Origin: Polynucleobacter sp. | GTDB taxonomy: Bacteria > Pseudomonadota > Gammaproteobacteria > Burkholderiales > Burkholderiaceae | Assembly: GCF_030693775.1 (NCBI RefSeq) | Contig: NZ_JAUXZY010000002.1 | Location: forward strand, 93,361-125,360 | DNA length: 32,000 bases | Direction: 5' to 3' | Shown here: piece after piece, positions 2,549-16,276 of the stretch | Position numbering within the stretch: the first letter of the stretch is position 1 | How the letters are laid out: each line of letters starts with the position of its first letter | Translations under genes and position numbers: made by a program | Notes under the pieces: model-generated | Databases searched by the model: none | What the model saw: the letters and a program-made list of their open reading frames with translations, nothing else | What the model was told of the DNA's origin: nothing

Positions 2549-2749
2549 TTACTTAGCGATCTTATGATCGCACTTGTTTACATCACCTGCGGCCAGAGAA
2601 AAACACCTAATTGTATCTTTGGCATCAATCATTAATTTCTCTGCCGCTATTAATAGCTCATGCGAAGAAATCTTCTTCAAACCTTGAGATTCAGCATTAA
2701 TTCTGTGAAATATTCGTTCAGTCAACTGAAGATTGGATAGCTTGCTCAT
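2549..2749 (-). CDS. Hypothetical small helical protein (66 aa), overlapping the upstream membrane-protein gene
   Basis: ATG preceded by AGGGAG about 8 nt upstream. Its start lies 32 nt inside the 3' end of the 353-aa ORF on the same strand, which suggests coupled expression. I recognise no motif. Confidence 0.5.
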   Translation of the reverse strand: MSKLSNLQLTERIFHRINAESQGLKKISSHELLIAAEKLMIDAKDTIRCFSLAAGDVNKCDHKIAK

Positions 2750-3779
2750 TAGATAACTCCCTTATTCCCAGTAAAGAAAATTCTAACTTCATGCGCAACT
2801 CAAAAGATCTAAGCAATTCAATATAGCTAGCCTTAAATCTTGTTTTGAAATAATGAGGTTGATCAGAATAGATTGAAATTACAAATATTACAGAATTAAA
2901 TTTTTCATAAAAAATTGGGTAGCAAATAAGAGATCCATCCTCATCTTTTCTTGTTGGATTCGGGGAAAACCTTGGTGAATCTTTATCCAGTTCCCGCTTA
3001 ATGCTCTCAATAATAAGAATGGACTTTGTATTTGCCGCATGCCTAATAGATGAATTAGGCTTATTCAATATATGAATCGGGGTTTTAACGCTGTGATTAT
3101 TAGGGTAATGAAACGGGATGTCATTTATGTAGCCATCTTGCATTTGCGCAAAATTAACCTTAAGAGTAAATTTTTCGCCTGGATTCTCAAGCTGCAAAAG
3201 CGCCAGCATAGATGAATGCAATCCTTGAACTAATTCGTTTAACTGGCTTGCAGGCTGGGTTATGGAGTTGAAAGTTTGCCCAATGTTTATAGGGCTATCC
3301 GAATTTTGAAGATCTATCAAAAAACGACTAAATCTTTGCTCTTTAGTTCCAACAATATTGTCGATTGAGCGGAGAAGAAGTGTAGGCATTTCTGTCCACC
3401 CATTTGGGTTCTCCTGATAAATGCTTTTTAGGAATTTATAGAAGGCAATTATAAAAAATGCCCACACACAACTAGCGAAGACTCCTATAACCATATATCG
3501 ATCAAGAAATTCTCCGGCATCGGGTAAATACTCCTTAATTTTTAATGCGAATCTATCTATCTGATAGTACTGCTGCAAAAAATAAGGTGGGAATGTTAAA
3601 ACAAAAGTTCCAAACAGCGAAAATAATATGGCGTGATTCTTTGAAAATCTTCTTGCATACGTTGCTAAGCCCACCAATATATTCGAATCTTTCCACTTTT
3701 CGAAAATGGATTTTTTGATGGGCGCAGACTTGACTACAATTTTGCGAGATCGCCTGTTCTTTTCACGGCTTTGGGTCAT
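2718..3779 (-). CDS. Hypothetical 2-TM membrane protein with GAF-like C-terminal domain
   Basis: 353 aa. Basic N-terminus. Two hydrophobic helices (AILFSLFGTFVLTFPPYFLQQYY; YMVIGVFASCVWAFFIIAFYKFL). The C-terminal segment GSLICYPIFYEKFNSVIFVISIYSDQPHYF...YIELLRSFE resembles the GAF-domain core pattern, but the similarity is weak and judged by eye. Confidence 0.7.
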   Translation of the reverse strand: MTQSREKNRRSRKIVVKSAPIKKSIFEKWKDSNILVGLATYARRFSKNHAILFSLFGTFVLTFPPYFLQQYYQIDRFALKIKEYLPDAGEFLDRYMVIGVFASCVWAFFIIAFYKFLKSIYQENPNGWTEMPTLLLRSIDNIVGTKEQRFSRFLIDLQNSDSPINIGQTFNSITQPASQLNELVQGLHSSMLALLQLENPGEKFTLKVNFAQMQDGYINDIPFHYPNNHSVKTPIHILNKPNSSIRHAANTKSILIIESIKRELDKDSPRFSPNPTRKDEDGSLICYPIFYEKFNSVIFVISIYSDQPHYFKTRFKASYIELLRSFELRMKLEFSLLGIRELSNEQAIQSSVD

Positions 3780-3973: not shown

Positions 3974-4780
3974 TCACTCCGAAGGGGGGATATCAGCTGA
4001 AACAGGAGCCTCCGATGATTTGACTTGAGCTGCAGAGTTTTTCGCTTTCTTTGAGATGGCTTTGGCTATTTTTTTGGATGCCTCCTTAGCCTTATCACCC
4101 TCCTGAACTTCCCTCTTAATCACCTCATTCAATAAAACTGACTTAATGTCATCAGTATCAATTTTGACGTCTGGAGAAACGCGACGAAGCTCTCTACGGA
4201 TCACATCTAGCACTGGATCAGTTTGTAGCATGGCGCCAATAAAGAATCTGGAAAGGGCCTGTCGCTGGGTGTGATAGTCACCCAAAGCAGATTTGATCCA
4301 TCCCTCCTTACATAGCAGATACAAAGATTCAACATCATCCTTAGATCTACTATTGATGGAAGTCATATCCAATGCCACAACTAACTCTTTATCGATTGGC
4401 TTCTCAAAAATTACCTTGTAAACAAACCAAGTAATTCCGTTCGTAAGTACTACCCAGTCAAGGCCTTGATTGGCAGCATAGTCAATTGCCTGCTTGATAT
4501 GCTGCTCTTTTAACTCGATCCCAATTGCTTTAGCCTCGATTAATATGGCCAGCCGATTATCGAGTTTGATTGCCAAATCACAATAGGTACCTCTAATTGC
4601 AAACTCCGAAGTAACCTCAGAATATTTGTCATACCCAAAGATATCTGAGAGCATGTCCTTAATCAGGGTAACGGTATCCGCCTCGCCAACATCTCTAGAT
4701 CTTGCGGCAACCAGAAGAGGTTGATATTTTTTTATACCAGATACAACTCTTTCGGTTATCTTTTTTGGAATGGTGGCCAT
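3974..4780 (-). CDS. HsdR-N-like PD-(D/E)xK nuclease-fold protein, stand-alone
   Basis: I chose the start at Met24 of the tracked ORF (MATIPKK), which has AGGA 8 nt upstream. The core GTYCDLAIKLDNRLAILIEAKAIG...VVLTNG matches the D...(E/D)xK restriction-endonuclease-like pattern typical of type I R-subunit N-terminal domain proteins. The C-terminal tail is Lys/Ala-rich. Confidence 0.75.
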   Translation of the reverse strand: MATIPKKITERVVSGIKKYQPLLVAARSRDVGEADTVTLIKDMLSDIFGYDKYSEVTSEFAIRGTYCDLAIKLDNRLAILIEAKAIGIELKEQHIKQAIDYAANQGLDWVVLTNGITWFVYKVIFEKPIDKELVVALDMTSINSRSKDDVESLYLLCKEGWIKSALGDYHTQRQALSRFFIGAMLQTDPVLDVIRRELRRVSPDVKIDTDDIKSVLLNEVIKREVQEGDKAKEASKKIAKAISKKAKNSAAQVKSSEAPVSADIPPSE

Positions 4781-4910
4781 ACTTAATCCTTCATAAAATT
4801 GTTTAGGTGGGCATTTGATTATGTTTTTAACTAATAAATAGTACTCCACCTCAAATCATTTTGGGTTGATGCAAAGCTGTATTTAAAAAAGGCTATTCCA
4901 GAGTATTCAT

Positions 4911-5285: not shown

Positions 5286-5368
5286 AAAGACCCCAAAAAT
5301 AACTATTTTCAGTTTAGTTATGGTGCATATAACTGTCTAGCTCTGATTTAAGGGATTTTATAACCGGC

Positions 5369-5391
5369 AAGTGTCGCGTTTCGAGACACTT
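5369..5391 (+). repeat. 23-nt direct repeat / putative att core (left copy)
   Basis: AAGTGTCGCGTTTCGAGACACTT is 22/23 identical to 16254-16276 in the same orientation. It contains an internal 7-bp inverted repeat AAGTGTC/GACACTT around a 9-nt spacer. Confidence 0.65.
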
Positions 5392-5692: not shown

Positions 5693-5850
5693 TAACAACT
5701 TCAGATATCCCCAGGAAAAAACTTTTTTAAGAGAAGTAGATCCCAGCCCGATTAAACAAATTGCATTTAACCCTTCTTTTTTATACATGAAACCAAAAAT
5801 TAATCTAAATAGTTATTTGACCATATCAAAAGAGATATAAAATCCACGAC

Positions 5851-6225
5851 ATGTCTTGGCCACAATACTTTCCTCCTGAATGCCCACCAGCCGACTCACA
5901 AGATCTAGAGGTTACAGTTTTCAGGCTTGTAAGATCGCTCCCTCCAACTATCGAAGATTTTAAGCCAGCGCTCGTTGAATATCCACACAGAAATTTTTCG
6001 CCCGATAAGTTGTGTATGGCCTGTGGAGTTTCGGTTTTTTCTAAATTAAATGAGATTATCGATAAAAGAGATGCGTTCAAAGCATTGAGAAATAGAAAAA
6101 TTGCCAAGGGGTTAATCAGTCAAGGTGACGGTCCATTGTTACTATCCAACAAGGATTCACACATTACTTGGTGGTCAAAAATTCAGGCGCCACACATAAA
6201 TTTTGCAGAAGCCGTAAATGAATAG
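5851..6225 (+). CDS. Hypothetical protein (124 aa) with ECPPAD...C-x2-C(G)VSVF pattern
   Basis: Its stop overlaps the start of the next ORF by 8 nt (6218-6225). N-terminal FPPECPPADSQ...VFRLV...P..EDF and central LCMACGVSVF. I cannot assign a family. The SD is weak. Confidence 0.6.
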   Translation: MSWPQYFPPECPPADSQDLEVTVFRLVRSLPPTIEDFKPALVEYPHRNFSPDKLCMACGVSVFSKLNEIIDKRDAFKALRNRKIAKGLISQGDGPLLLSNKDSHITWWSKIQAPHINFAEAVNE

Positions 6226-7378
6226 CTCTGAATTTTTTAAGAAAATCATCGCTAACCTTACCCCATTAGAAATTTTCATTTTTCATGATGGTCCGAGATT
6301 CTATAGTTGTCGAGACTTAACTGGTCAACAGTATTTAGTTTATTGGGTAGATGAAACAGATCAAGGGGATGAATGGCTCTATGAAAGAGTGAGTCCAGAA
6401 AGACTTAATAGCTTGAAATCTGGACAAATCTCTATACATCAAGCTCTAAAGAATCCAGAGGATTATTGTGCATACATAGTAAAACCTTTTCATAACTCGC
6501 TTTCAGTTAATGAAATCTCCTGCGATCAAATTGAGGAAGATTGGCTTCCACCAGAATCATACTTTCTAAGTGTTGAAACAAAAACTTTGCCAGATAAATT
6601 AATATCAACTGACGCATTGGCGCTTAGCTCAAAAAGAGAAGTTTTAGATATTGCTTTTGTAAAAAAATCAAATGCATATGAACTTTCATGCGGAAAGCTT
6701 GGATTAATTTTGAATGCAATTCAATCAACAGTCAATTCATTGATGCTGCCAAGCGAATCAAACGTTCGGAAAATTCCAGAGCACTTAAAATATCAGTCTG
6801 AACTAAACATCACAGGAATATATGCGAGCTCTTTCGGAATTAGACTTCAGTCAAGAGGGAGCGAACTTTTGCCAGGAGGAGCCCTCTCTAGTGCGCTAGA
6901 GACTCTTAGTAGACTACTTTCAGAAACAGATTCGCCCGAGTTAATGGTTAAAAATATAAAAGCCGTTAATGTTTTGAGTCGTAGTAGATTTAAGAATCTA
7001 TTAACTACTCTTGTTGATTCAACGGTTGCCATAAAACTTGAGTGGGCATCCCCTGAGGGTCGTCAACTTTCAACAAACTGCTCTTACGAAAAATTAAGCC
7101 AATCACTTACAAAACTTGAGCAATCAGAAGAGGCAAACAAAGAAGATATCGATGTAAGCGGAAAACTAGTTGGAGTCGATGTAGAGAATGACTTTTTTGC
7201 AATAATTGCTGATGATAAAACCCTGATTAAAGGCAAACTATCAAAAGACCTCACTAATAGCAACTTTGTAGTGCCAAGCAGAATTCAAGCAATCATAGAG
7301 GCTACATGCGTGACCGATCCAGTTACAGATCGTGATAAGTGGTCTAACACTCTCATAAGTTATAAAAAATTGGAATAA
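6218..7378 (+). CDS. Hypothetical protein (386 aa), coupled to the 124-aa ORF
   Basis: Long uninterrupted ORF with ordinary amino-acid composition and an overlapping start. No catalytic motif recognised. Confidence 0.75.
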   Translation: MNSSEFFKKIIANLTPLEIFIFHDGPRFYSCRDLTGQQYLVYWVDETDQGDEWLYERVSPERLNSLKSGQISIHQALKNPEDYCAYIVKPFHNSLSVNEISCDQIEEDWLPPESYFLSVETKTLPDKLISTDALALSSKREVLDIAFVKKSNAYELSCGKLGLILNAIQSTVNSLMLPSESNVRKIPEHLKYQSELNITGIYASSFGIRLQSRGSELLPGGALSSALETLSRLLSETDSPELMVKNIKAVNVLSRSRFKNLLTTLVDSTVAIKLEWASPEGRQLSTNCSYEKLSQSLTKLEQSEEANKEDIDVSGKLVGVDVENDFFAIIADDKTLIKGKLSKDLTNSNFVVPSRIQAIIEATCVTDPVTDRDKWSNTLISYKKLE

Positions 7379-7536
7379 TGTTGGGCGGATAACTCCGCCT
7401 GCCCAGCCTTAATCTTCTGCCTAGCCCGCTCAGCTTTAATAGCTTGCTGATCACGCTTTACACGATCCTTCATTGATTTAAGTCTAGCTTGCTCTGGGCT
7501 TAATGGCTTTTGTGGGGCAATTTCATCAAATCTCAT
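7360..7536 (-). CDS. Possible small ORF (58 aa, highly charged coiled-coil-like)
   Basis: Hand-translated: MRFDEIAPQKPLSPEQARLKSMKDRVKRDQQAIKAERARQKIKAGQAELSAQHYSNFL. Its ATG lies 2 nt after the stop of the 48-aa ORF. It is below the 60-aa cut-off of the ORF track and has no clear SD. Confidence 0.3.
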   Translation of the reverse strand: MRFDEIAPQKPLSPEQARLKSMKDRVKRDQQAIKAERARQKIKAGQAELSAQHYSNFL

Positions 7537-7538
7537 AG

Positions 7539-7685
7539 TTAACCAATCTGCAGGGGTTGATGTGGCACGTTATTGGCACCAAAGATAGCTTGAAACAACC
7601 GATATGCCTGAGCCTGGTTTTGGGCGTACAAAATGGTCTCCACCCACATCCCTGCTGCATTTACTGTTGCCTTATATCTTTTCAT
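7539..7685 (-). CDS. Possible small ORF (48 aa)
   Basis: Hand-translated: MKRYKATVNAAGMWVETILYAQNQAQAYRLFQAIFGANNVPHQPLQIG. It lies 24 nt downstream of the 177-aa gene on the same strand. The composition is protein-like. No clear SD. Confidence 0.3.
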   Translation of the reverse strand: MKRYKATVNAAGMWVETILYAQNQAQAYRLFQAIFGANNVPHQPLQIG

Positions 7686-7709
7686 ATAGATATTTAGCAA
7701 ACCCGGTAG

Positions 7710-8243
7710 TCAACCACGCTTAACTTGATAATCCTCAATTTTAGGATCCCATATGTAGCTTAAGGATTCGGCATAGTCTTTGCCCACAAAAAGAAGAGTT
7801 TTCCGAATTTCATCAATTGAGACTCTATAAAGAACATTCTTTGCCTGACGGTCCGAGCAAAGCATAATTTCAGACCAATTTCGAGTTTTATCTCGTATTG
7901 CGAAAATTGCCCTGGAATGAATAAATTGATTGGCTAAATGCTTCACGGATATCTTGTCATCAAATTCGCGATCAAAAGAATAGAGCCTCTCAATATCAAA
8001 ATAATTTAACTTAGTGAGAGACCTTCTATTCCATGGCACACAGCGCACTGAAACTCTGTAATCATCAGATTTTTTTGATGTCTTATCCCTCTCAAGTAAG
8101 GTTCGGACGATATAAAAAGAAATCATGAGTTCTTTTTCAAAAATGACCAAAGCACGGTCGCTCCAGCGCTTTGGATTTTTTACAGGCCTAAGTCTTCGAG
8201 CATGATCCAGAAGGTCTTCTCGCCAATAATAAGATTCAATCAT
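7710..8243 (-). CDS. Hypothetical protein (177 aa), downstream partner of the HEPN-motif protein
   Basis: Same strand, 46 nt after the 330-aa gene. No motif recognised; ANQFIHSRAIF does not fit Rx4-6H. Confidence 0.7.
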   Translation of the reverse strand: MIESYYWREDLLDHARRLRPVKNPKRWSDRALVIFEKELMISFYIVRTLLERDKTSKKSDDYRVSVRCVPWNRRSLTKLNYFDIERLYSFDREFDDKISVKHLANQFIHSRAIFAIRDKTRNWSEIMLCSDRQAKNVLYRVSIDEIRKTLLFVGKDYAESLSYIWDPKIEDYQVKRG

Positions 8244-8289
8244 TCAAAATAACCCCCAGAAGTGCTGATTAAGATCTTAATAGGATGTA

Positions 8290-9282
8290 TTAATAATCAT
8301 AAATTGGATCAAAATTGCTCTGCTTAGCAATATGCTGATATGCGCGGTCTACAGCCTGGGTTAAATCTACAAATAACGCCTTTAATTTTGCATCAAAAAG
8401 ATTGATGTTTATTTCTCCAGTATGTACAAGCTGATTTCGATCGTTAACAATATTCTCTATAAGATCAAATAGACTTTCTTTTCTACCTCTATACGGCTTA
8501 CGTAAAATTGCGGCAATATCAATTTTAGAATCGACATATCCAAAATTTTTTGCAATTATGCTTGGACGTTGGAATGAAAAAGATTCCGCTATTAATCTTT
8601 CCGCTTGTAGGCTGCCCGCAATCAATTGCTCAAATTCAACATGGCCAAGCTTTGCTTGCTTTAGTGCGGACTCTCTTTTCCGAGAGTAGCGCAAACAAGC
8701 AGTAAAAGTTGCTCGGAAATATTCTTCCCATGCCGCTATTAAATAGGGAACCAACATATTATTTGATAATAAGCGTGGATTTAATTCATCTATAAAAGGA
8801 AGTCCCGAAGGCACATCTTTTGCTAAGTCACCACCTAGGTTACGATGCTGCAGATAAAGCTCAGCTCGCTGAAGATTGTTGTGAAACCTCCAACGAGCAA
8901 GATAACAACCGGAGGACAACGGTGAAGGTGCTGCTCCATTTGGACGCCAATAGCGATTTTTGCCTGCATCACTTTCAAAATGACCGCCAAATAGATCCCT
9001 CAATAACTTCAAAGTTCTATTTTGCTGCAAAAGATCCCAATAACTTCTCGAAACTCTTGATCTTGTGAAAATCTTAATTGGACCTTTTCTTGTTTTATAT
9101 ACCTCCAACTCAACACCCGTCCAAGAGCGATAATCCTTTTCATCAAACCAGTAATAGCTTGCGATTTGATTGGGCGCTTTGAAAGCATTTTTAACTTTTT
9201 TATACCCAAGTAATTCAGTAATGTCTCTAACTTGAGGAAGGGTTGCTGATAATTTAAGAATGCTAATAGAGGTATAGCTCAT
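8290..9282 (-). CDS. Protein with C-terminal HEPN-like domain (RNxxxH) and unknown N-terminal domain
   Basis: 330 aa. The C-terminal ~150 aa is helical and contains VNDRNQLVHTG (R282...H287, nt 8422-8439). This is the RNxxxH form of the HEPN Rx4-6H ribonuclease signature, followed by about 40 aa of helix. The N-terminal ~170 aa has no recognisable motif. Confidence 0.75.
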   Translation of the reverse strand: MSYTSISILKLSATLPQVRDITELLGYKKVKNAFKAPNQIASYYWFDEKDYRSWTGVELEVYKTRKGPIKIFTRSRVSRSYWDLLQQNRTLKLLRDLFGGHFESDAGKNRYWRPNGAAPSPLSSGCYLARWRFHNNLQRAELYLQHRNLGGDLAKDVPSGLPFIDELNPRLLSNNMLVPYLIAAWEEYFRATFTACLRYSRKRESALKQAKLGHVEFEQLIAGSLQAERLIAESFSFQRPSIIAKNFGYVDSKIDIAAILRKPYRGRKESLFDLIENIVNDRNQLVHTGEININLFDAKLKALFVDLTQAVDRAYQHIAKQSNFDPIYDY

Positions 9283-9368
9283 AGATCAGTACAAGGTAAT
9301 CATTGGTTGCGCTATAGCAAGCATACAACCAACTCATGCTTTAGATTTGAATCATCAAAATCTTTCTG

Positions 9369-9809
9369 TTAACGCCTAAATCCACTACGCAATCCAGCAC
9401 TAGCTGTCTCAATCTGCTCATCGAGCTCTCCCGCCTCTACAGCTGCTTTAATAGATTCCAGGGCTTTGATTAAAGCCTCTCCACTAGCTACTTCAACACT
9501 GGGCTTGCCTTTGGCTAGCTCAAGCGTCCAGCTGCCATATTTCACGGCGACACAGACTTTCCCTTCTTCACTTTGAAACCACCAGGGTTTAATCCGCTTA
9601 GGCACTTCAACCTGCTTGCGTATCCCTGTTTCACGATCTTTAACAGTTTTGTATTTCATGACTACAAATGGTGTTCCATTTAGCTGACTTTTTGCTAGCT
9701 GGATCTGCTCCCACAGCTTGGATCCCAGCTTATTCCTACGTATAACAATTACTGGCATATTACGAGGCTTTTTGACTGCGACTAGTTTGAGATGACTTAA
9801 TTGGCTCAT
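9369..9809 (-). CDS. Hypothetical protein (146 aa), first gene of the minus-strand cargo operon
   Basis: Strong SD (AGGAGA 6 nt upstream). Basic N-terminal half and a C-terminal helix (EALIKALESIKAAVEAGELDEQIE). It sits next to the AGTTGC repeat region, so a DNA-binding or regulatory role is possible but unproven. Confidence 0.75.
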   Translation of the reverse strand: MSQLSHLKLVAVKKPRNMPVIVIRRNKLGSKLWEQIQLAKSQLNGTPFVVMKYKTVKDRETGIRKQVEVPKRIKPWWFQSEEGKVCVAVKYGSWTLELAKGKPSVEVASGEALIKALESIKAAVEAGELDEQIETASAGLRSGFRR

Positions 9810-10936: not shown

Positions 10937-11503
10937 ATGGCACAAGCAAAAACCTTATCTCAAGCCGAACTTGATCAAGTTCTAGACTACGTCAGCACCA
11001 AAAAATATGCTTTGCGTGATCGCGCAATCATTCTTACCAGTTTTCTCGCAGGCCTTCGCGTTGCGGAGATCGCATCTTTAACCATGGGAGACGTAGTGAA
11101 CCCCGATGGCACCATTAAAAACGAGATTCGACTATCGGCAGCGCAGACCAAAGGCAAATACCCCAGAACCGTATTTGTTTCTCAGCGACTACAAACAGAG
11201 TTGGCCAACTACTTAACAACAAGACACGCCAAAGGCGCTGATATTCCCTTCTTTCATACCGATCATCGCTTACGCTTTAGCCCCAATGGCTTATGCGTAT
11301 GGTTTCATCAGCTGTACAAGAATGTGGGAATTAGCGGCGGTAGTAGCCACTCGGGAAGAAAATTTTTCATCACAACTTTGGCTAATAAAGGCATCGGCGT
11401 GCGAATCTTAGCCAGTCTTGCTGGTCACAGATCGATTGCCGTAACGCAAAGATATATCGATGTGAATGATGAACAAAAGAGAAATGCTGTGGAGCTTATC
11501 TAA
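10937..11503 (+). CDS. Short tyrosine recombinase (catalytic domain only, 188 aa)
   Basis: Catalytic signature residues in order: R (LAGLRVAEI), K (TKGKYPRTV), HxxR (SHSGRKFF), H (AGHRSIAVT), Y (QRYIDV). There is no N-terminal core-binding (SAM-like) domain. Confidence 0.85.
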   Translation: MAQAKTLSQAELDQVLDYVSTKKYALRDRAIILTSFLAGLRVAEIASLTMGDVVNPDGTIKNEIRLSAAQTKGKYPRTVFVSQRLQTELANYLTTRHAKGADIPFFHTDHRLRFSPNGLCVWFHQLYKNVGISGGSSHSGRKFFITTLANKGIGVRILASLAGHRSIAVTQRYIDVNDEQKRNAVELI

Positions 11504-11517
11504 TATAAAGTAAGGCA

Positions 11518-12051
11518 TTACTCTAAATTGAGTGATGTCTTATCTTCGGCAACACGTTGCTTAACCGATTTTTCTTCGAAATCATCCAAGAAAGCGGTTT
11601 GACGTAAGCGATATTCAATGGTGGGCATTGAAAGTAAATCAGCTTTTAAGCCCTCTTTAATCCAAATGCGATCCCTAATTTCACCCCGGGCATATTTGGA
11701 GATTGCAGCGTCATTTAACTCAAGAAATAACGCCCGCACATTGCCAAAGTCGTGAACCACAAAGCGGTCCTCCCAGCTATCAGGCAGCGTTGGTAAGTCT
11801 GGACTGGCTGCATCTACGTAATAACCGAATTCATCTTCAAACGCACTACCTTGACCAATAATCGCAGCAATCTCACCTGCGCGAGCTGGATCATCTTTTG
11901 GATACATATCGACATCAATAGATCTAACCATCTCATCTGGAGGAGGAACTTCAAGACCCAGGGCGGTCAGGCTACCAATAATGACGTAGTCAGTGTGATT
12001 GGTAATCTTTTTAGCTTCAGTTAATACGTGATGAATATGATTCAGATTCAA
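11518..12051 (-). CDS. Nucleotidyltransferase-fold protein (MNT/DUF6036-like), TA-type
   Basis: 177 aa. Pol-beta NTase motif IIGS...(x22)...SIDVDMY. The apparent start is TTG, overlapping the TGA stop of the upstream 110-aa ORF. Confidence 0.75.
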   Translation of the reverse strand: MNLNHIHHVLTEAKKITNHTDYVIIGSLTALGLEVPPPDEMVRSIDVDMYPKDDPARAGEIAAIIGQGSAFEDEFGYYVDAASPDLPTLPDSWEDRFVVHDFGNVRALFLELNDAAISKYARGEIRDRIWIKEGLKADLLSMPTIEYRLRQTAFLDDFEEKSVKQRVAEDKTSLNLE

Positions 12052-12380
12052 CGAACTTCTTTCATCAGAAAGCTAAATGGGGAATTTTGTGCAAGCGCAT
12101 GTGCCTGAGGAGCGTCACCACAAACCTCTTGCTCCATTTCGGACGGGTCGGCATTTATCAATCTTCTCCAGGAGTCAATGTAAAAACGACTACATAACTC
12201 TTTTTCCTCCCACATCCGAATACGAACTTCAGCTTGATGTACTACATCATTACGACGATCAGATCGAAGTAATATCAGAGCGTGACGATGCAACCTACCA
12301 AGTTTTTCGTACTTCTCAGCATCAGCTTTGCGTGCTAAAACACGCATGGAGAGGGAAAGATTAGGTTTAACGCTTTGCAT
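12048..12380 (-). CDS. Hypothetical small partner of the nucleotidyltransferase (110 aa)
   Basis: Translationally coupled to the NTase gene. Contains DRRNDVVHQ, an RNxxxH-like string placed too near the N-terminus for a canonical HEPN fold. The antisense ORF 12077-12364 is less likely given the coupling. Confidence 0.55.
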   Translation of the reverse strand: MQSVKPNLSLSMRVLARKADAEKYEKLGRLHRHALILLRSDRRNDVVHQAEVRIRMWEEKELCSRFYIDSWRRLINADPSEMEQEVCGDAPQAHALAQNSPFSFLMKEVR

Positions 12381-14491: not shown

Positions 14492-15040
14492 ATGCGCTAC
14501 CCAAGAACAGTCTTTGTTTTTGACACTCCAAACCATGGCATAGATCAAGAATACTTTCAGATGATTAGCTCATCTTCACAGAAGATCTATATACGCGGGC
14601 ATTCAAAACCAATTGGGACAATTGATTCTGAGCTTGATGCCATCAAAATTTTGGATGGGTATCTCAACTTTACCGGCCCAAATCGATCCTATATGGTCAT
14701 CGGCAATCTAAAGCATGTCGAATTTATTGCCACTAGCCTGGCTGATAAAGATTGCTCCATCTATTGGCTCATGAATAAGAATTCAGCTTTATGCATTCGC
14801 GCAGCTTTAAGTGCCTTACTTGATCTTCATGAAATGGAAGCCTTATTTAACGAGGCGCTTTACTACTACACTAAATCCAGAGATCGGTATCAAGCATTAT
14901 CCGATTCCAGGCACATATCAAACGATGATTTTCCCCAGCTTATTGCGGACATCATCAATGGAGGAAAACAGGTTGAGCTACGGGCAGATATTGAAAGTTT
15001 TTTATGCGAAGAATTGCATATCGGGAAGTTTGAGATCTAA
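14492..15040 (+). CDS. Hypothetical protein (182 aa)
   Basis: AAGGA SD. Its 3' end overlaps the convergent integrase stop by 4 nt. No motif. Confidence 0.7.
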   Translation: MRYPRTVFVFDTPNHGIDQEYFQMISSSSQKIYIRGHSKPIGTIDSELDAIKILDGYLNFTGPNRSYMVIGNLKHVEFIATSLADKDCSIYWLMNKNSALCIRAALSALLDLHEMEALFNEALYYYTKSRDRYQALSDSRHISNDDFPQLIADIINGGKQVELRADIESFLCEELHIGKFEI

Positions 15041-16251
15041 GCCAACTTAGCGGCTGCCATCATTGGGGTCAGTTTTGAGTAATGACGCTCAATCATTAAT
15101 GTCGAGGTACCCATTTGCCTAGCTAGGGTGTGTATATCAATACCTTCAGCTAGTGCAAATGTGGCATAGGTATGGCGTAGGCTATACAGGCTACGATTAC
15201 GCCCCGCTACATCTTTGAGTAAATTACATTCTTTTAAGAGATTCTCAAACTGAGGATTAAAGTTATAGGGCTGAACCCCTCTTGGGAAAGTAAATATCAG
15301 ACGATCTAACCTGGCCTCAATGACTTCATTAAGGTCTTTATATGGCAATTGATGCCAAGCAATTAATCTTTCCAAGCAATCCACTACCAAATTTTTAGCA
15401 ATTAAATATCGAGGTCCTGTTTTACCGGAAAGCCAAACCTTAAGATACCGCTGATCGCCAATCCAATGCCATTGCAAATGCTTCCAGCGCATGGGCTTTA
15501 GCTCGGTTCCGGGCCTAGCTCCTGTGTAAAGCAAGAATTCGACATAGGAGCGACATAGTTGCCTCATCTCCTTGGTGCGAGATGATCTGCCAACCTTTTC
15601 CCAGCTAGGCATATAGCCCAATAATTGAGCGATCTCTTCCTTACTAAAGGCGGGTCTTGCTTGACTGGGAGAGCCATGGGGATCCAATAAAGGCACCCGA
15701 TAACTATCGGCAATGAGGTTTTGCTCTCTTGCTAGAGCAACTACCCGGTTATAGGTCGTAGCATGGGTGCGTTTTGTACTTGCCTGGGGATCTCTACCCA
15801 TCTGTGATGAGCGCCAAGATTCAAAATCCTTAACCAGCTCTGGGGTGATTTCCTTTAGCTGGAATTTTCCAAAAAATGGAATGAGGTATTTATTGAGGAC
15901 AAATTTGTAATCCTTAAAGATGGCTTTGCCATTACCTTCTTTATTGGCAACGTCCATCACCACGAGATCTTCTTCAGCTAACTGCTTAAATGACTTGGAT
16001 TTGAGGCTCAATTCCTGACTAATCTTAGCCATGGTCTGCTCATAAAGCGCTATAGAGGCATGCTTGGCCTCTTCAAGATCCGCCTGGCCAGTGCTCATGG
16101 AGTGCCACTGACAATTGGGCAACCTAAAGCGGCATTGCCATTGATTGCTGCCTGATCGCTTAAAGAGACTTACTAAACCTCGGTGGAGGTGAATTACATC
16201 AGCAGACTGGGATGCACTAGATTTGAAGAAAAGCTGGTTTAGATTTTGCAC
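15037..16251 (-). CDS. Tyrosine-type site-specific integrase
   Basis: 404 aa with a GTG start. Catalytic motifs: LYTGARPGTEL (Arg I), LRHTYATFAL (HxxR), and IERHYSKL (nucleophile Tyr). The N-terminal WQCRFRL region is an arm-binding type. The gene abuts the 23-nt repeat. Confidence 0.92.
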   Translation of the reverse strand: MQNLNQLFFKSSASQSADVIHLHRGLVSLFKRSGSNQWQCRFRLPNCQWHSMSTGQADLEEAKHASIALYEQTMAKISQELSLKSKSFKQLAEEDLVVMDVANKEGNGKAIFKDYKFVLNKYLIPFFGKFQLKEITPELVKDFESWRSSQMGRDPQASTKRTHATTYNRVVALAREQNLIADSYRVPLLDPHGSPSQARPAFSKEEIAQLLGYMPSWEKVGRSSRTKEMRQLCRSYVEFLLYTGARPGTELKPMRWKHLQWHWIGDQRYLKVWLSGKTGPRYLIAKNLVVDCLERLIAWHQLPYKDLNEVIEARLDRLIFTFPRGVQPYNFNPQFENLLKECNLLKDVAGRNRSLYSLRHTYATFALAEGIDIHTLARQMGTSTLMIERHYSKLTPMMAAAKLA

Positions 16252-16253
16252 TC

Positions 16254-16276
16254 AAGTGTCGTGTTTCGAGACACTT
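16254..16276 (+). repeat. 23-nt direct repeat / putative att core (right copy)
   Basis: AAGTGTCGTGTTTCGAGACACTT begins 3 nt beyond the integrase start codon. It is 22/23 identical to 5369-5391. Confidence 0.65.

What the first reader, a model, noticed from the sequence alone, without database searches (positions are those of the whole stretch)
5851..7378. Overlapping 124-aa + 386-aa gene pair with no recognisable domains in the cargo position
The two ORFs overlap by 8 nt (6218-6225), which suggests translational coupling. The small protein has a distinctive N-terminal FPPECPPAD...VFRLV...P..EDF segment and a central C-x2-C-G-VSVF motif. The large protein has no catalytic signature. The pair lies just inside the left repeat of the putative integrative element and converges on the HEPN operon. 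That is the typical position and organisation of anti-phage or addiction cargo. I cannot assign either protein to a family by eye.
Basis: partly seen in the sequence, partly recalled or inferred. Interest (0 to 1): 0.7.

Follow-up and report, generated by a model that had tools for sequence, protein, structure and literature searches.

The report
Distant PD-T4-10-type toxin–antitoxin defence pair
The two overlapping genes are a real, strictly co-conserved pair and a distant variant of PD-T4-10, a two-gene toxin–antitoxin phage-defence system whose mechanism is unknown; it sits as cargo on a mosaic, integrase-bearing defence island.

Summary
ORF A (5851-6225, 124 aa) and ORF B (6218-7378, 386 aa) overlap by 8 nt (ATGAATAG).

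Both have database matches. A hits PADLOC PD-T4-10_A. B hits Pfam DUF6575 and PADLOC PD-T4-10_B, but only in its N-terminal third. Its C-terminal half matches PDC-M63B, an untested defence candidate.

PD-T4-10 (Vassallo 2022) is a validated toxin–antitoxin abortive-infection system: B is toxic and A neutralises it. Its mechanism is unknown.

In 23 of 23 independent loci an A homologue lies directly upstream of a B homologue. These span Proteobacteria, Cyanobacteria and Actinobacteria and were found through either gene. A and B's N-domain are always conserved together, while B's C-terminal part differs between clades (E. coli prophage forms have a different one).

The pair lies about 460 nt inside a 24-nt direct repeat that brackets a 10.9-kb integrase-bearing element. 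Neighbouring cassettes in that element swap between strains.

One new lead: A's confident structure model resembles ADP-ribosyltransferase folds, below significance, and R25, S61 and H104 are (near-)invariant.

Verdict: a new variant of a known kind, of moderate interest.

The parts
5368..5391 (.). Left copy of a 24-nt direct repeat (CAAGTGTCGCGTTTCGAGACACTT, internally palindromic). Putative attL-like boundary of the 10.9-kb element.
   Evidence: The pair starts 460 nt inside it.
5851..6225 (+). Gene A, 124 aa: PD-T4-10A-like putative antitoxin. Signature P8, C11-P12-P13, R25, D36-F37, C55, G59, S61, G94, H104-x-T-W107-W108.
   Evidence: PADLOC PD-T4-10_A 1.1e-6, and 28 of 36 family members hit it. 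No Pfam or NCBIfam family. AF2 model pLDDT 92.6. Conservation.
6218..6225 (+). 8-nt overlap ATGAATAG (B start / A stop), the translational-coupling junction.
   Evidence: A tight junction is conserved at other loci.
6218..7378 (+). Gene B, 386 aa: DUF6575 protein, PD-T4-10B-like putative toxin.
   Evidence: Pfam DUF6575 1.2e-21, res 10-173. PADLOC PD-T4-10_B 9.6e-12, res 8-123, and PDC-M63B 2.3e-12, res 188-380. AF2 model pLDDT 86.9.
6218..6580 (+). B N-terminal domain (about res 1-120, acidic, pI 4.5). This is the part shared by all B variants and always found together with A. Inferred docking site for A.
6605..7375 (+). B central alpha/beta region (about res 130-306, basic, pI 9.1; invariant S205-F-G; RSRFK 255-259) plus a C-terminal five-strand OB-like barrel (about res 308-384). 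Clade-specific putative effector module, shared with PDC-M63B and phrog_6603/phrog_18731.
7360..7700 (-). Two small convergent ORFs (58 and 53 aa) that stay linked to A/B in strain variants but do not recur at distant loci. Not part of the system.
7701..7701 (.). Recombination breakpoint. Strain variants are 99.97% identical to the window up to this base, then carry a different cassette (a 777-aa SEC-C protein instead of the HEPN pair).
7710..9282 (-). Convergent neighbouring cassette: a 177-aa protein plus a 330-aa HEPN (RiboL-PSP-like) protein. A separate, swappable module.
15037..16251 (-). Tyrosine-recombinase (integrase) gene at the right end of the element.
   Evidence: Phage_integrase plus SAM-like domains, weak scores
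16253..16276 (.). Right copy of the 24-nt direct repeat, abutting the integrase start.

Best explanation
The pair is a distant member of the PD-T4-10 superfamily of two-gene toxin-antitoxin/abortive-infection modules, carried as cargo on a 10.9-kb integrase-bearing, cassette-swapping defence island.

Proposed working model:
1. A and B are made from one transcript with translational coupling through the ATGAATAG overlap, which keeps their ratio fixed.
2. A (124 aa, a well-folded globular protein) binds the acidic N-terminal DUF6575 domain of B and keeps B inactive.
3. Phage infection disturbs this complex. The trigger is unknown.
4. Free B arrests or kills the cell through its clade-specific central plus OB-like C-terminal module, so the phage cannot complete its cycle.

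What is shown here: the homology of both proteins to PD-T4-10 profiles, the strict A-B pairing and tight junction, the modular architecture of B, and the location on a mobile island.

What is taken from the literature on the prototype: B is toxic, A neutralises it, and the phenotype is abortive infection.

What is inferred: that A acts on B's N-domain, that the C-terminal module is the effector, and that this copy defends its own host.
For: Profile matches. A matches PADLOC PD-T4-10_A (1.1e-6, 104 of 124 residues). B matches PD-T4-10_B (9.6e-12) and Pfam DUF6575 (1.2e-21). 28 of 36 A-family and 50 of 53 B-family representatives hit the same PADLOC profiles.

Prototype biology. The prototype has overlapping ORFs, B is toxic, A neutralises it and cannot be deleted, and it gives abortive-infection defence against T-even phages (PMC9519451).

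Pairing. An A homologue lies directly upstream of B in 23 of 23 independent loci, whether the locus was found through B or through A.

Modularity. E. coli and Rahnella prophage variants keep a full-length A (E about 1e-28). Their B matches the narrow B profile (A1) only over about res 1-120 (the broad profile A4 extends to about res 200 in one variant), followed by a different C-terminal part with a weak DUF7226 match. Linker insertions and one duplicated N-domain mark a domain boundary near res 120-130. The window's C-terminal module recurs in PDC-M63B and two PHROGs of about 300 aa.

Context. A 24-nt direct repeat and an integrase bracket the element. Neighbouring slots swap HEPN pair with SEC-C protein and DUF6036-NTase pair with Zeta-toxin pair between strains. 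Homologues elsewhere lie next to integrases, prophage genes and TA genes.

Both proteins are soluble, with no TM segment.
Against: Nothing was tested experimentally for this clade.

Only B's N-terminal third aligns to the PD-T4-10_B profile (res 8-123 to profile positions 11-126 of 353). The validated toxic part of the prototype may therefore not be homologous to the window's C-terminal module.

I could not retrieve the prototype sequence (RCO36088.1/RCO36089.1) for a direct comparison.

PDC-M63AB, which shares the C-terminal module, showed no defence against 10 phages in its native E. coli host.

B shows no catalytic signature and no significant structural match beyond a local OB-like barrel, and that barrel is acidic (pI 4.7). 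How it would be toxic is unknown.

A is unusually conserved, with invariant polar residues, and lacks any DNA-binding antitoxin domain. That does not fit a simple type II antitoxin.

An N-terminally truncated B without A exists (L024/L025). So the C-terminal module alone may not be lethal.
Confidence: 0.7

Rival explanations
1. The pair is an addiction (stabilisation) module only. It is a toxin-antitoxin system whose selected role is to keep the integrative island in the chromosome, with no anti-phage activity in its host.
For: The pair sits 460 nt inside the island boundary. The island carries other TA-like cassettes: DUF6036 NTase pair, or Zeta toxin in variants. PDC-M63AB, which shares B's C-terminal module, showed no defence in a native host.
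Against: The only tested member of the superfamily defends strongly against T-even phages. E. coli variants occupy classic prophage moron positions, between Q, the lysis genes and terminase, where defence genes accumulate. The surrounding slots hold defence-type genes: HEPN, and RT-trypsin/patatin in L033. Addiction and defence are not mutually exclusive.
Confidence: 0.15
2. A is not a passive binder. It is a minimal ADP-ribosyltransferase-fold protein that controls B either enzymatically (covalent modification, like a type VII antitoxin) or by sensing NAD+/ADP-ribose-type ligands. The system then reads out a nucleotide signal or a phage ART activity.
For: The A model is confident (pLDDT 92.6).

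Roughly half of its top 50 PDB fold matches come from different ART-fold families: EcPltA, LT, cholera toxin, pertussis S1, tankyrase/PARP2, ParT, Xre-RES and IcmQ, with TMq up to 0.43.

In the independent BFVD library the named hits are again PARP, ART-PolyVal, rifampin ART and an ART domain.

The secondary-structure order b1-a-b2-a-b3-b4-b5-b6 matches the ART core. R25 lies on b1 and S61 on b2, where R-S-E ARTs have their Arg and Ser (established knowledge of the fold).

S61, H104 and W108 are 100% conserved and R25 is 92% conserved over 50 sequences. That is unusual for an antitoxin.
Against: No fold match is significant: the best E is 0.66 in the PDB and 0.13 in BFVD, with probabilities of at most 0.72.

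No Pfam ART family and no PDB sequence is hit by any of the 36 members or by the profile.

The position of the catalytic Glu (start of b5) is an invariant His, so canonical R-S-E chemistry is not expected.

PARP and tankyrase entries are heavily over-represented in the PDB, which inflates the apparent enrichment.

I could not inspect the model coordinates to test whether R25, S61 and H104 form one pocket.
Confidence: 0.15
3. The roles are reversed in this clade. A (the ART-like protein) is the toxic effector and B is its regulator or sensor, as in all known ART-fold TA systems (DarT, ParT, RES/MbcT, CmdT), where the ART-fold protein is the toxin.
For: A holds the conserved polar residues, while B's conserved positions are mostly structural. 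There is a sub-threshold ART resemblance.
Against: In the prototype, B alone was toxic, A neutralised it, and A could not be deleted. The gene order (small gene first, overlapping the larger one) is the usual antitoxin-toxin order. B's C-terminal module varies the way effectors do, while A stays constant.
Confidence: 0.05

Closest known systems
PD-T4-10 (Vassallo et al. 2022, Nat Microbiol; E. coli ECOR65, RCO36089.1 + RCO36088.1)
   Same: It is a two-gene operon with a small upstream gene overlapping a larger downstream gene. A matches the PD-T4-10_A profile over about 84% of its length. B matches the PD-T4-10_B profile and Pfam DUF6575 in its N-terminal domain. It is carried on a mobile element.
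   Different: Only residues 8-123 of B align to the 353-position PD-T4-10_B profile. The remaining two-thirds instead match PDC-M63B. All 50 matching representatives of the window's clade score weakly (best 1.3e-14), so this is a sister clade, not a close relative. A is shorter: 124 aa against at least 162 aa in the prototype. The host is an uncultured environmental bacterium, and toxicity and defence are untested.
PDC-M63 (PADLOC phage-defence candidate, two genes, never validated)
   Same: B residues 172-380 (central region plus OB-like barrel) match four of the PDC-M63B profiles, best 2.3e-12. 33 of 53 clade representatives match too.
   Different: PDC-M63B profiles are about 309 aa long, and their first ~95-113 positions do not align to B's N-terminal region. 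No A-family member hits a PDC-M63A profile. PDC-M63AB gave no measurable defence in E. coli NILS69.
E. coli / Rahnella prophage DUF6575 pairs (140-146 aa + 429-430 aa; e.g. WP_000005499.1 + WP_000072969.1)
   Same: They have the same A family (E about 1e-28 over the full length), the same B N-domain and a 4-nt overlap.
   Different: B matches the whole Pfam DUF6575 model (129 bits) and then has a different C-terminal region with a weak DUF7226 match. They sit as morons in lambdoid prophages between Q, the lysis genes and terminase. They are present in only 13 of 5,426 complete E. coli genomes. In their A proteins C11 is replaced by Val.
ART-fold toxin-antitoxin toxins (DarT of DarTG, ParT of ParST, RES/MbcT of Xre-RES, CmdT of CmdTAC = PD-T4-9)
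   Same: A's model gives sub-threshold fold matches to ParT and Xre-RES, alongside the classical ART toxins LT, cholera toxin and pertussis S1. An Arg lies on b1 and a Ser on b2. These systems are also TA/defence modules.
   Different: In those systems the ART-fold protein is the toxin and has a catalytic Glu or an equivalent residue. Here the ART-like protein occupies the antitoxin position, has His at the Glu position, and shows no sequence-profile match to any ART family. I have not demonstrated membership.

Membership tests
PD-T4-10 defence/TA system | Two adjacent same-strand genes, with the small A upstream overlapping or abutting the larger B | tested here: met
   8-nt overlap in the window. 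The same arrangement holds in 23 of 23 loci.
PD-T4-10 defence/TA system | A matches the PD-T4-10_A profile | tested here: met
   E 1.1e-6; res 9-112 to profile positions 23-134 of 148. 28 of 36 family members match, best 9.4e-11.
PD-T4-10 defence/TA system | B matches the PD-T4-10_B profile | tested here: met
   E 9.6e-12. 50 of 53 clade representatives match.
PD-T4-10 defence/TA system | B is homologous to the prototype over its full length (same effector region) | tested here: not met
   Only res 8-123 align, to profile positions 11-126 of 353. The rest of B matches PDC-M63B instead. I could not obtain the prototype sequence for a direct alignment.
PD-T4-10 defence/TA system | B is toxic, A neutralises it, and the phenotype is abortive-infection protection against phage | not testable with these tools
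   Known only for the ECOR65 prototype (PMC9519451).
Pfam DUF6575 (PF20215) | Score above the gathering threshold (26.6 bits) | tested here: met
   77.6 bits, E 1.2e-21; res 10-173 to model positions 9-173 of 218.
PDC-M63 (PADLOC candidate) | B-component profile match | tested here: met
   PDLC04747 at 2.3e-12, res 188-380 to profile positions 113-306 of 309. This is partial, covering the C-terminal module only.
PDC-M63 (PADLOC candidate) | The partner gene matches PDC-M63A | tested here: not met
   No PDC-M63A hit for A at E<=1, nor for any of 36 A-family members at E<=0.01.
ADP-ribosyltransferase (ART) fold superfamily (for protein A) | Significant structural similarity to ART-fold structures | tested here: inconclusive
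   Many ART-fold proteins appear among the top Foldseek hits in two libraries, but the best E is 0.66 (PDB) and 0.13 (BFVD), with TMq at most 0.46.
ADP-ribosyltransferase (ART) fold superfamily (for protein A) | Sequence-profile match to an ART family | tested here: not met
   No ART family among the Pfam hits for 36 members at E<=10. No ART chain in the PDB profile search.
ADP-ribosyltransferase (ART) fold superfamily (for protein A) | Catalytic motif R-S-E or H-Y-E at b1, b2 and b5 | tested here: not met
   R25 (92%) on b1 and S61 (100%) on b2 are present, but the start of b5 is an invariant His104, not Glu. The assignment of positions is by secondary-structure order, not by superposition.
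Classical type II toxin-antitoxin | The antitoxin has a DNA-binding domain (HTH, RHH, AbrB...) and a poorly conserved toxin-binding region | tested here: not met
   The only Pfam DNA-binding hit among the 36 A-family members is a single chance-level HTH_AraC match in one member (E 0.1). A is a compact globular fold with pLDDT 92.6 and invariant residues.
OB-fold (for the B C-terminus) | Five-strand barrel with a helix between b3 and b4, and structural matches to OB proteins | tested here: inconclusive
   Local Foldseek matches to IF1, Rim1/SSB, RPA and ExoVII OB domains have TMt about 0.6, probability up to 1.00 and E 7e-3 to 0.15. The strand order of res 308-384 fits. However, the tool did not report which query region aligned, and the barrel is acidic.

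The most novel reading that the evidence does not exclude
The small 'antitoxin' A is a minimal ADP-ribosyltransferase-fold protein with an R-S-H site. It controls the DUF6575 toxin by covalent modification or by sensing NAD+/ADP-ribose-type ligands (or phage ART activity). If so, the whole PD-T4-10 superfamily would work by a regulatory logic not described for any TA or defence system: an ART-fold antitoxin docked on a conserved N-domain that carries interchangeable effector modules.
Probability: 0.15. Interest if true: 0.8.

Novelty: new variant of a known kind. Interest (0 to 1): 0.45.

Why it matters
PD-T4-10 is experimentally validated, but nothing is known about how it works. This analysis adds four things.

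1. The E. coli prototype is one small branch of a large family: 2,775 B-protein clusters at 50% identity, found in bacteria from several phyla.
2. The constant unit is A plus the first ~120 residues of B. The rest of B comes in at least three forms, which looks like a regulatory docking module with exchangeable effectors.
3. A is a well-folded, highly conserved protein with invariant Ser, His and Trp and a near-invariant Arg, and a possible ART-like fold. That gives concrete residues to mutate.
4. The strain-to-strain cassette swaps around the pair show a defence island being rearranged in a natural population.

None of this changes the basic classification, so the value is as a guide for mechanistic work on a known system.

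Tried and rejected
- NCBIfam gave no hit for either protein.
- PDB sequence-profile searches gave only chance hits: Cas5 at E 0.075 for B and myoglobin at 0.0078 for A. I rejected both.
- The whole-protein fold search of B gave no global match. The exosome, ligase and similar hits have rmsd above 20 Å and are meaningless.
- Pfam scans of all 36 A-family members at E<=10 gave only scattered chance hits.
- I tried to recover the ECOR65 prototype by walking through Rahnella and E. coli DUF6575 loci by DNA similarity. This found three prophage variant groups (140-146 aa + ~430 aa) but not the 1.6-kb prototype.
- I asked whether contigs L029-L031 were an empty integration site. They are not: L029 and L030 are 99.4-100% collinear with the window through the fetched part of the integrase region, and L031 diverges only inside the integrase gene, at 15959.
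- I asked whether the small ORFs that travel with A/B (67, 58 and 53 aa) are extra components. They have no homologue at any distant locus.
- tblastn of window A, window B and the E. coli-type B against 50,697 phage genomes gave no match. The IMG/VR pattern scan found no confirmed relative, and the broad alignment was too divergent to scan with.
- A membrane-toxin idea is rejected because there is no hydrophobic segment.
- There is no tRNA gene at the island boundary.
- The consensus scan found no plus-strand promoter between 5692 and 5851 and no intrinsic terminator directly after B.
Full report
**1. The observation**

B's ATG (6218) and A's TAG (6223-6225) form the 8-nt overlap ATGAATAG.

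Both are real genes. B has 31 word-indexed homologues (E down to 2.9e-237), and an exhaustive profile search finds 2,775 clusters at 50% identity with E<=1e-3 and 347 with E<=1e-30. A evolves too fast for single-sequence word search (one hit), but a profile built from syntenic upstream ORFs finds 40 proteins.

**2. Family assignment**

The statement that the pair has no recognisable domains does not survive a database search.

- B matches Pfam DUF6575 (PF20215): 77.6 bits against a cut-off of 26.6, residues 10-173.
- In PADLOC, A matches PD-T4-10_A (1.1e-6, residues 9-112 to profile positions 23-134 of 148).
- B matches PD-T4-10_B (9.6e-12), but only over residues 8-123 (profile positions 11-126 of 353).
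- B residues 172-380 match four PDC-M63B profiles, best 2.3e-12.
- NCBIfam has nothing for either protein.

The matches hold across the families. 28 of 36 A-family members hit PD-T4-10_A and nothing else in PADLOC. 50 of 53 B-family representatives hit PD-T4-10_B, none better than 1.3e-14, and 33 of 53 also hit PDC-M63B. The window's clade is therefore a sister group of the E. coli prototype, not a close relative.

**3. What is known about PD-T4-10**

Vassallo et al. 2022 (PMC9519451) recovered it from E. coli ECOR65 in a functional selection against T4. The paper reports:

- two overlapping ORFs;
- B is toxic when expressed alone, and A fully neutralises it;
- A could not be deleted, and deleting B abolished T4 resistance;
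- protection is by abortive infection and extends to T-even phages.

The authors found no predicted function for either protein, and their HHpred tables show nothing above 20% probability. A 2024 survey still lists it as a TA system of unknown function. PDC-M63AB is a PADLOC candidate that gave no measurable defence in its native E. coli host.

The paper lists DUF6575 among its new defence domains but does not say in the text which system carries it. The link to PD-T4-10B rests on the PADLOC profile and Pfam DUF6575 covering the same N-terminal region of the window's B.

**4. Co-conservation**

- A genome scan with the B alignment returned ten loci (Iodobacter, Methyloglobulus, Methylococcaceae, Zeimonas, Nitrincola, Halomonas, Amphritea, Oleiphilus and others). 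All ten have an A-like ORF of 124-130 aa directly upstream.
- The same holds on plasmids of Oscillatoria and Rahnella, in three E. coli prophage variant groups, and in three further contigs. In two of those contigs A was not called but is intact.
- Starting instead from the four most distant A homologues (including Microbacterium), each is followed at once by a B-family gene, with E 1e-12 to 1e-141 against the broad B profile.
- A six-frame profile scan of all loci confirms A directly upstream of B in 23 of 23 independent loci.
- Junctions are always tight, either an overlap of 1-14 nt or a gap of at most 9 nt. The exception is the first-start ORF calls in L001 and L006, which give 47 nt.
- The small ORFs next to the pair in the window do not recur elsewhere, so the module has two genes.

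**5. Architecture of B**

The AF2 model is confident (pLDDT 86.9). It has three parts:

- a beta-rich N-domain (about 13-101);
- a linker followed by a central alpha/beta region (about 130-306);
- a five-strand barrel (308-384) whose strand order fits an OB fold.

The only structural matches are local ones to OB proteins: IF1, Rim1/SSB, RPA and ExoVII, with TMt about 0.6.

Relatives with inserted linkers, and one with a duplicated N-domain, place a domain boundary near residue 120-130.

E. coli and Rahnella variants keep A over its full length (E about 1e-28). Their B matches the window-clade profile (A1) only over about the first 120 residues; the broad profile (A4) extends to about residue 200 in one variant. 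Pfam DUF6575 covers its whole model on them (129 bits), and a different C-terminal domain follows (a weak DUF7226 match).

The window's C-terminal module matches PDC-M63B and two PHROGs of unknown function of about 300 aa.

So the constant unit is A plus B's N-domain, and the rest of B is exchangeable. I read this as a regulatory docking module with interchangeable effectors. That reading is an inference.

B has no TM segment. Its N-domain is acidic (pI 4.5), the central region basic (pI 9.1) and the barrel acidic (pI 4.7), which argues against a classical nucleic-acid-binding OB. Across 53 diverse members the conserved positions are mostly structural. S205 and G339 are invariant, and D24, S59, E81 and Q169 are nearly so. 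I see no catalytic signature, so the way B is toxic remains unknown.

**6. Protein A**

The AF2 model is very confident (pLDDT 92.6, pTM 0.84), with the order b1(21-27)-helices-b2(60-63)-helix-b3(83-89)-b4(96-98)-b5(104-107)-b6(118-120).

Over 50 non-redundant homologues, P8, P12, S61, G94, H104 and W108 are invariant. C11, P13, R25, G59 and T99 are at least 90% conserved. This is not what a typical type II antitoxin looks like, and there is no DNA-binding domain.

Foldseek finds nothing significant. However, about half of the top 50 PDB matches are ADP-ribosyltransferase-fold proteins from different families: EcPltA, LT, cholera toxin, pertussis S1, tankyrase/PARP2, ParT, Xre-RES and IcmQ, with TMq up to 0.43. 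In the independent viral library the annotated matches are again PARP, ART-PolyVal, rifampin ART and an ART domain.

By secondary-structure order, R25 and S61 fall where R-S-E ARTs carry their Arg and Ser. The catalytic Glu position is the invariant His104.

No sequence profile supports the link, and I could not inspect coordinates. I therefore treat this as a lead with roughly even odds for the fold and low odds for catalysis.

**7. Genomic context**

A 24-nt direct repeat (5368-5391 and 16253-16276, 23/24 identical, internally palindromic) brackets 10.9 kb. The right copy abuts the integrase gene 15037-16251(-). There is no tRNA gene.

Inside the element are:

- the A/B pair;
- a convergent pair of a 177-aa protein and a 330-aa HEPN protein;
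- DUF6641;
- a short integrase-family gene;
- a DUF6036 nucleotidyltransferase pair;
- an AAA ATPase.

The exact B protein occurs in many metagenome samples (about 68 index blocks). Strain variants are 99.97% identical to the window from 4218 to exactly 7701 and then carry a 777-aa SEC-C protein instead of the HEPN pair. A second slot swaps the DUF6036 pair for a Zeta-toxin pair. One strain has an RT-trypsin/patatin module on the left, and the right chromosomal flank also differs between strains.

The clade was not found in 50,697 phage genomes or in IMG/VR by pattern scan. The E. coli variants, in contrast, are prophage morons present in 13 of 5,426 complete genomes.

**8. Verdict**

The pair is a distant variant of a known, validated but mechanistically unexplained TA/abortive-infection system. 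Membership of the PD-T4-10 superfamily is well supported for A and for B's N-domain. Full-length equivalence of B to the prototype was tested and not met, so I class it as a new variant of a known kind.

The most likely mechanism is that A holds B inactive through B's N-domain until infection releases B (confidence 0.7 overall; the individual steps are marked as shown, taken from the literature, or inferred under 'best explanation').

The most novel reading still open is an ART-fold antitoxin acting by modification or ligand sensing (probability about 0.15).

Noticed in passing
window 7701-9300 and 11518-12380; loci L027, L028, L032-L035: Strain variants of the same island swap cassettes at fixed breakpoints. 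The 177-aa + 330-aa HEPN pair is replaced by a 777-aa SEC-C-domain protein, with the breakpoint exactly at window 7701. The DUF6036 nucleotidyltransferase + 110-aa pair is replaced by a Zeta-toxin (173 aa) + 65-aa pair. The backbone genes stay 99.7-100% identical.
   Followed up: partly
L033:3284-6296: One strain carries a 592-aa reverse transcriptase (RVT_1) fused to Trypsin_2, plus a patatin and an HXXEE protein, to the left of the HSDR_N_2 gene, where the window has a 353-aa ORF. This looks like another defence module in the same hotspot.
   Followed up: no
window 5368-5391 and 16253-16276: The 24-nt direct repeat is itself a hairpin (AAGTGTC...GACACTT). Variable genes also lie to the left of the left copy (HSDR_N_2 protein at 3974-4849; 353-aa ORF at 2718-3779). 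The repeat-bounded 10.9-kb element may therefore sit inside, or next to, a larger variable region.
   Followed up: partly
L024:2830-3702 and L025:3001-3873: A 290-aa B relative lacks the DUF6575 N-domain and has no A gene upstream. It lies beside a Transposase_20 remnant and was seen on 5 contigs. It is either a decayed copy or evidence that the C-terminal module alone is tolerated.
   Followed up: partly
proteins P0123, P0014, P0096, P0109, P0132, P0187: B relatives have a tandemly duplicated N-domain (P0123, 529 aa) or 25-60-residue insertions between the N-domain and the rest. These mark a flexible linker at about residue 120-130.
   Followed up: yes
L013:3527-5238, L014:2564-4290, L019:3001-4712, L011:2537-4260: E. 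coli and Rahnella carry A-like (140-146 aa) + DUF6575 (429-430 aa) pairs as morons in lambdoid prophages, between the antiterminator Q, lysis genes and terminase. Their B has a different C-terminal domain (a weak DUF7226 match). They occur in only 13 of 5,426 complete E. coli genomes.
   Followed up: partly
window 9369-9809 (-): The DUF6641 protein (146 aa) matches phrog_31551 (1.2e-20, unknown function). It is kept in all strain variants, next to the swappable slot.
   Followed up: no
window 5817-5843 (+): TTGACC (5817-5822), a 15-nt spacer, then TAAAAT (5838-5843) ends 7 nt before A's ATG, and no clear Shine-Dalgarno follows. This could be a promoter giving a leaderless or very short-leader mRNA. 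The consensus scan, which requires a 16-18-nt spacer, did not report it.
   Followed up: no
window 7384-7399: A GGCGGA-TAAC-TCCGCC hairpin lies 6 nt after B's stop codon, inside the 3' end of the convergent 58-aa ORF. No T-run follows it, so it is not a canonical intrinsic terminator.
   Followed up: no
window 10937-11503 (+): A 188-aa Phage_integrase-family ORF (catalytic domain only, 3.5e-22) lies in the middle of the island and is conserved in all strain variants. It is either a short recombinase or a remnant that marks a junction between two fused elements.
   Followed up: no
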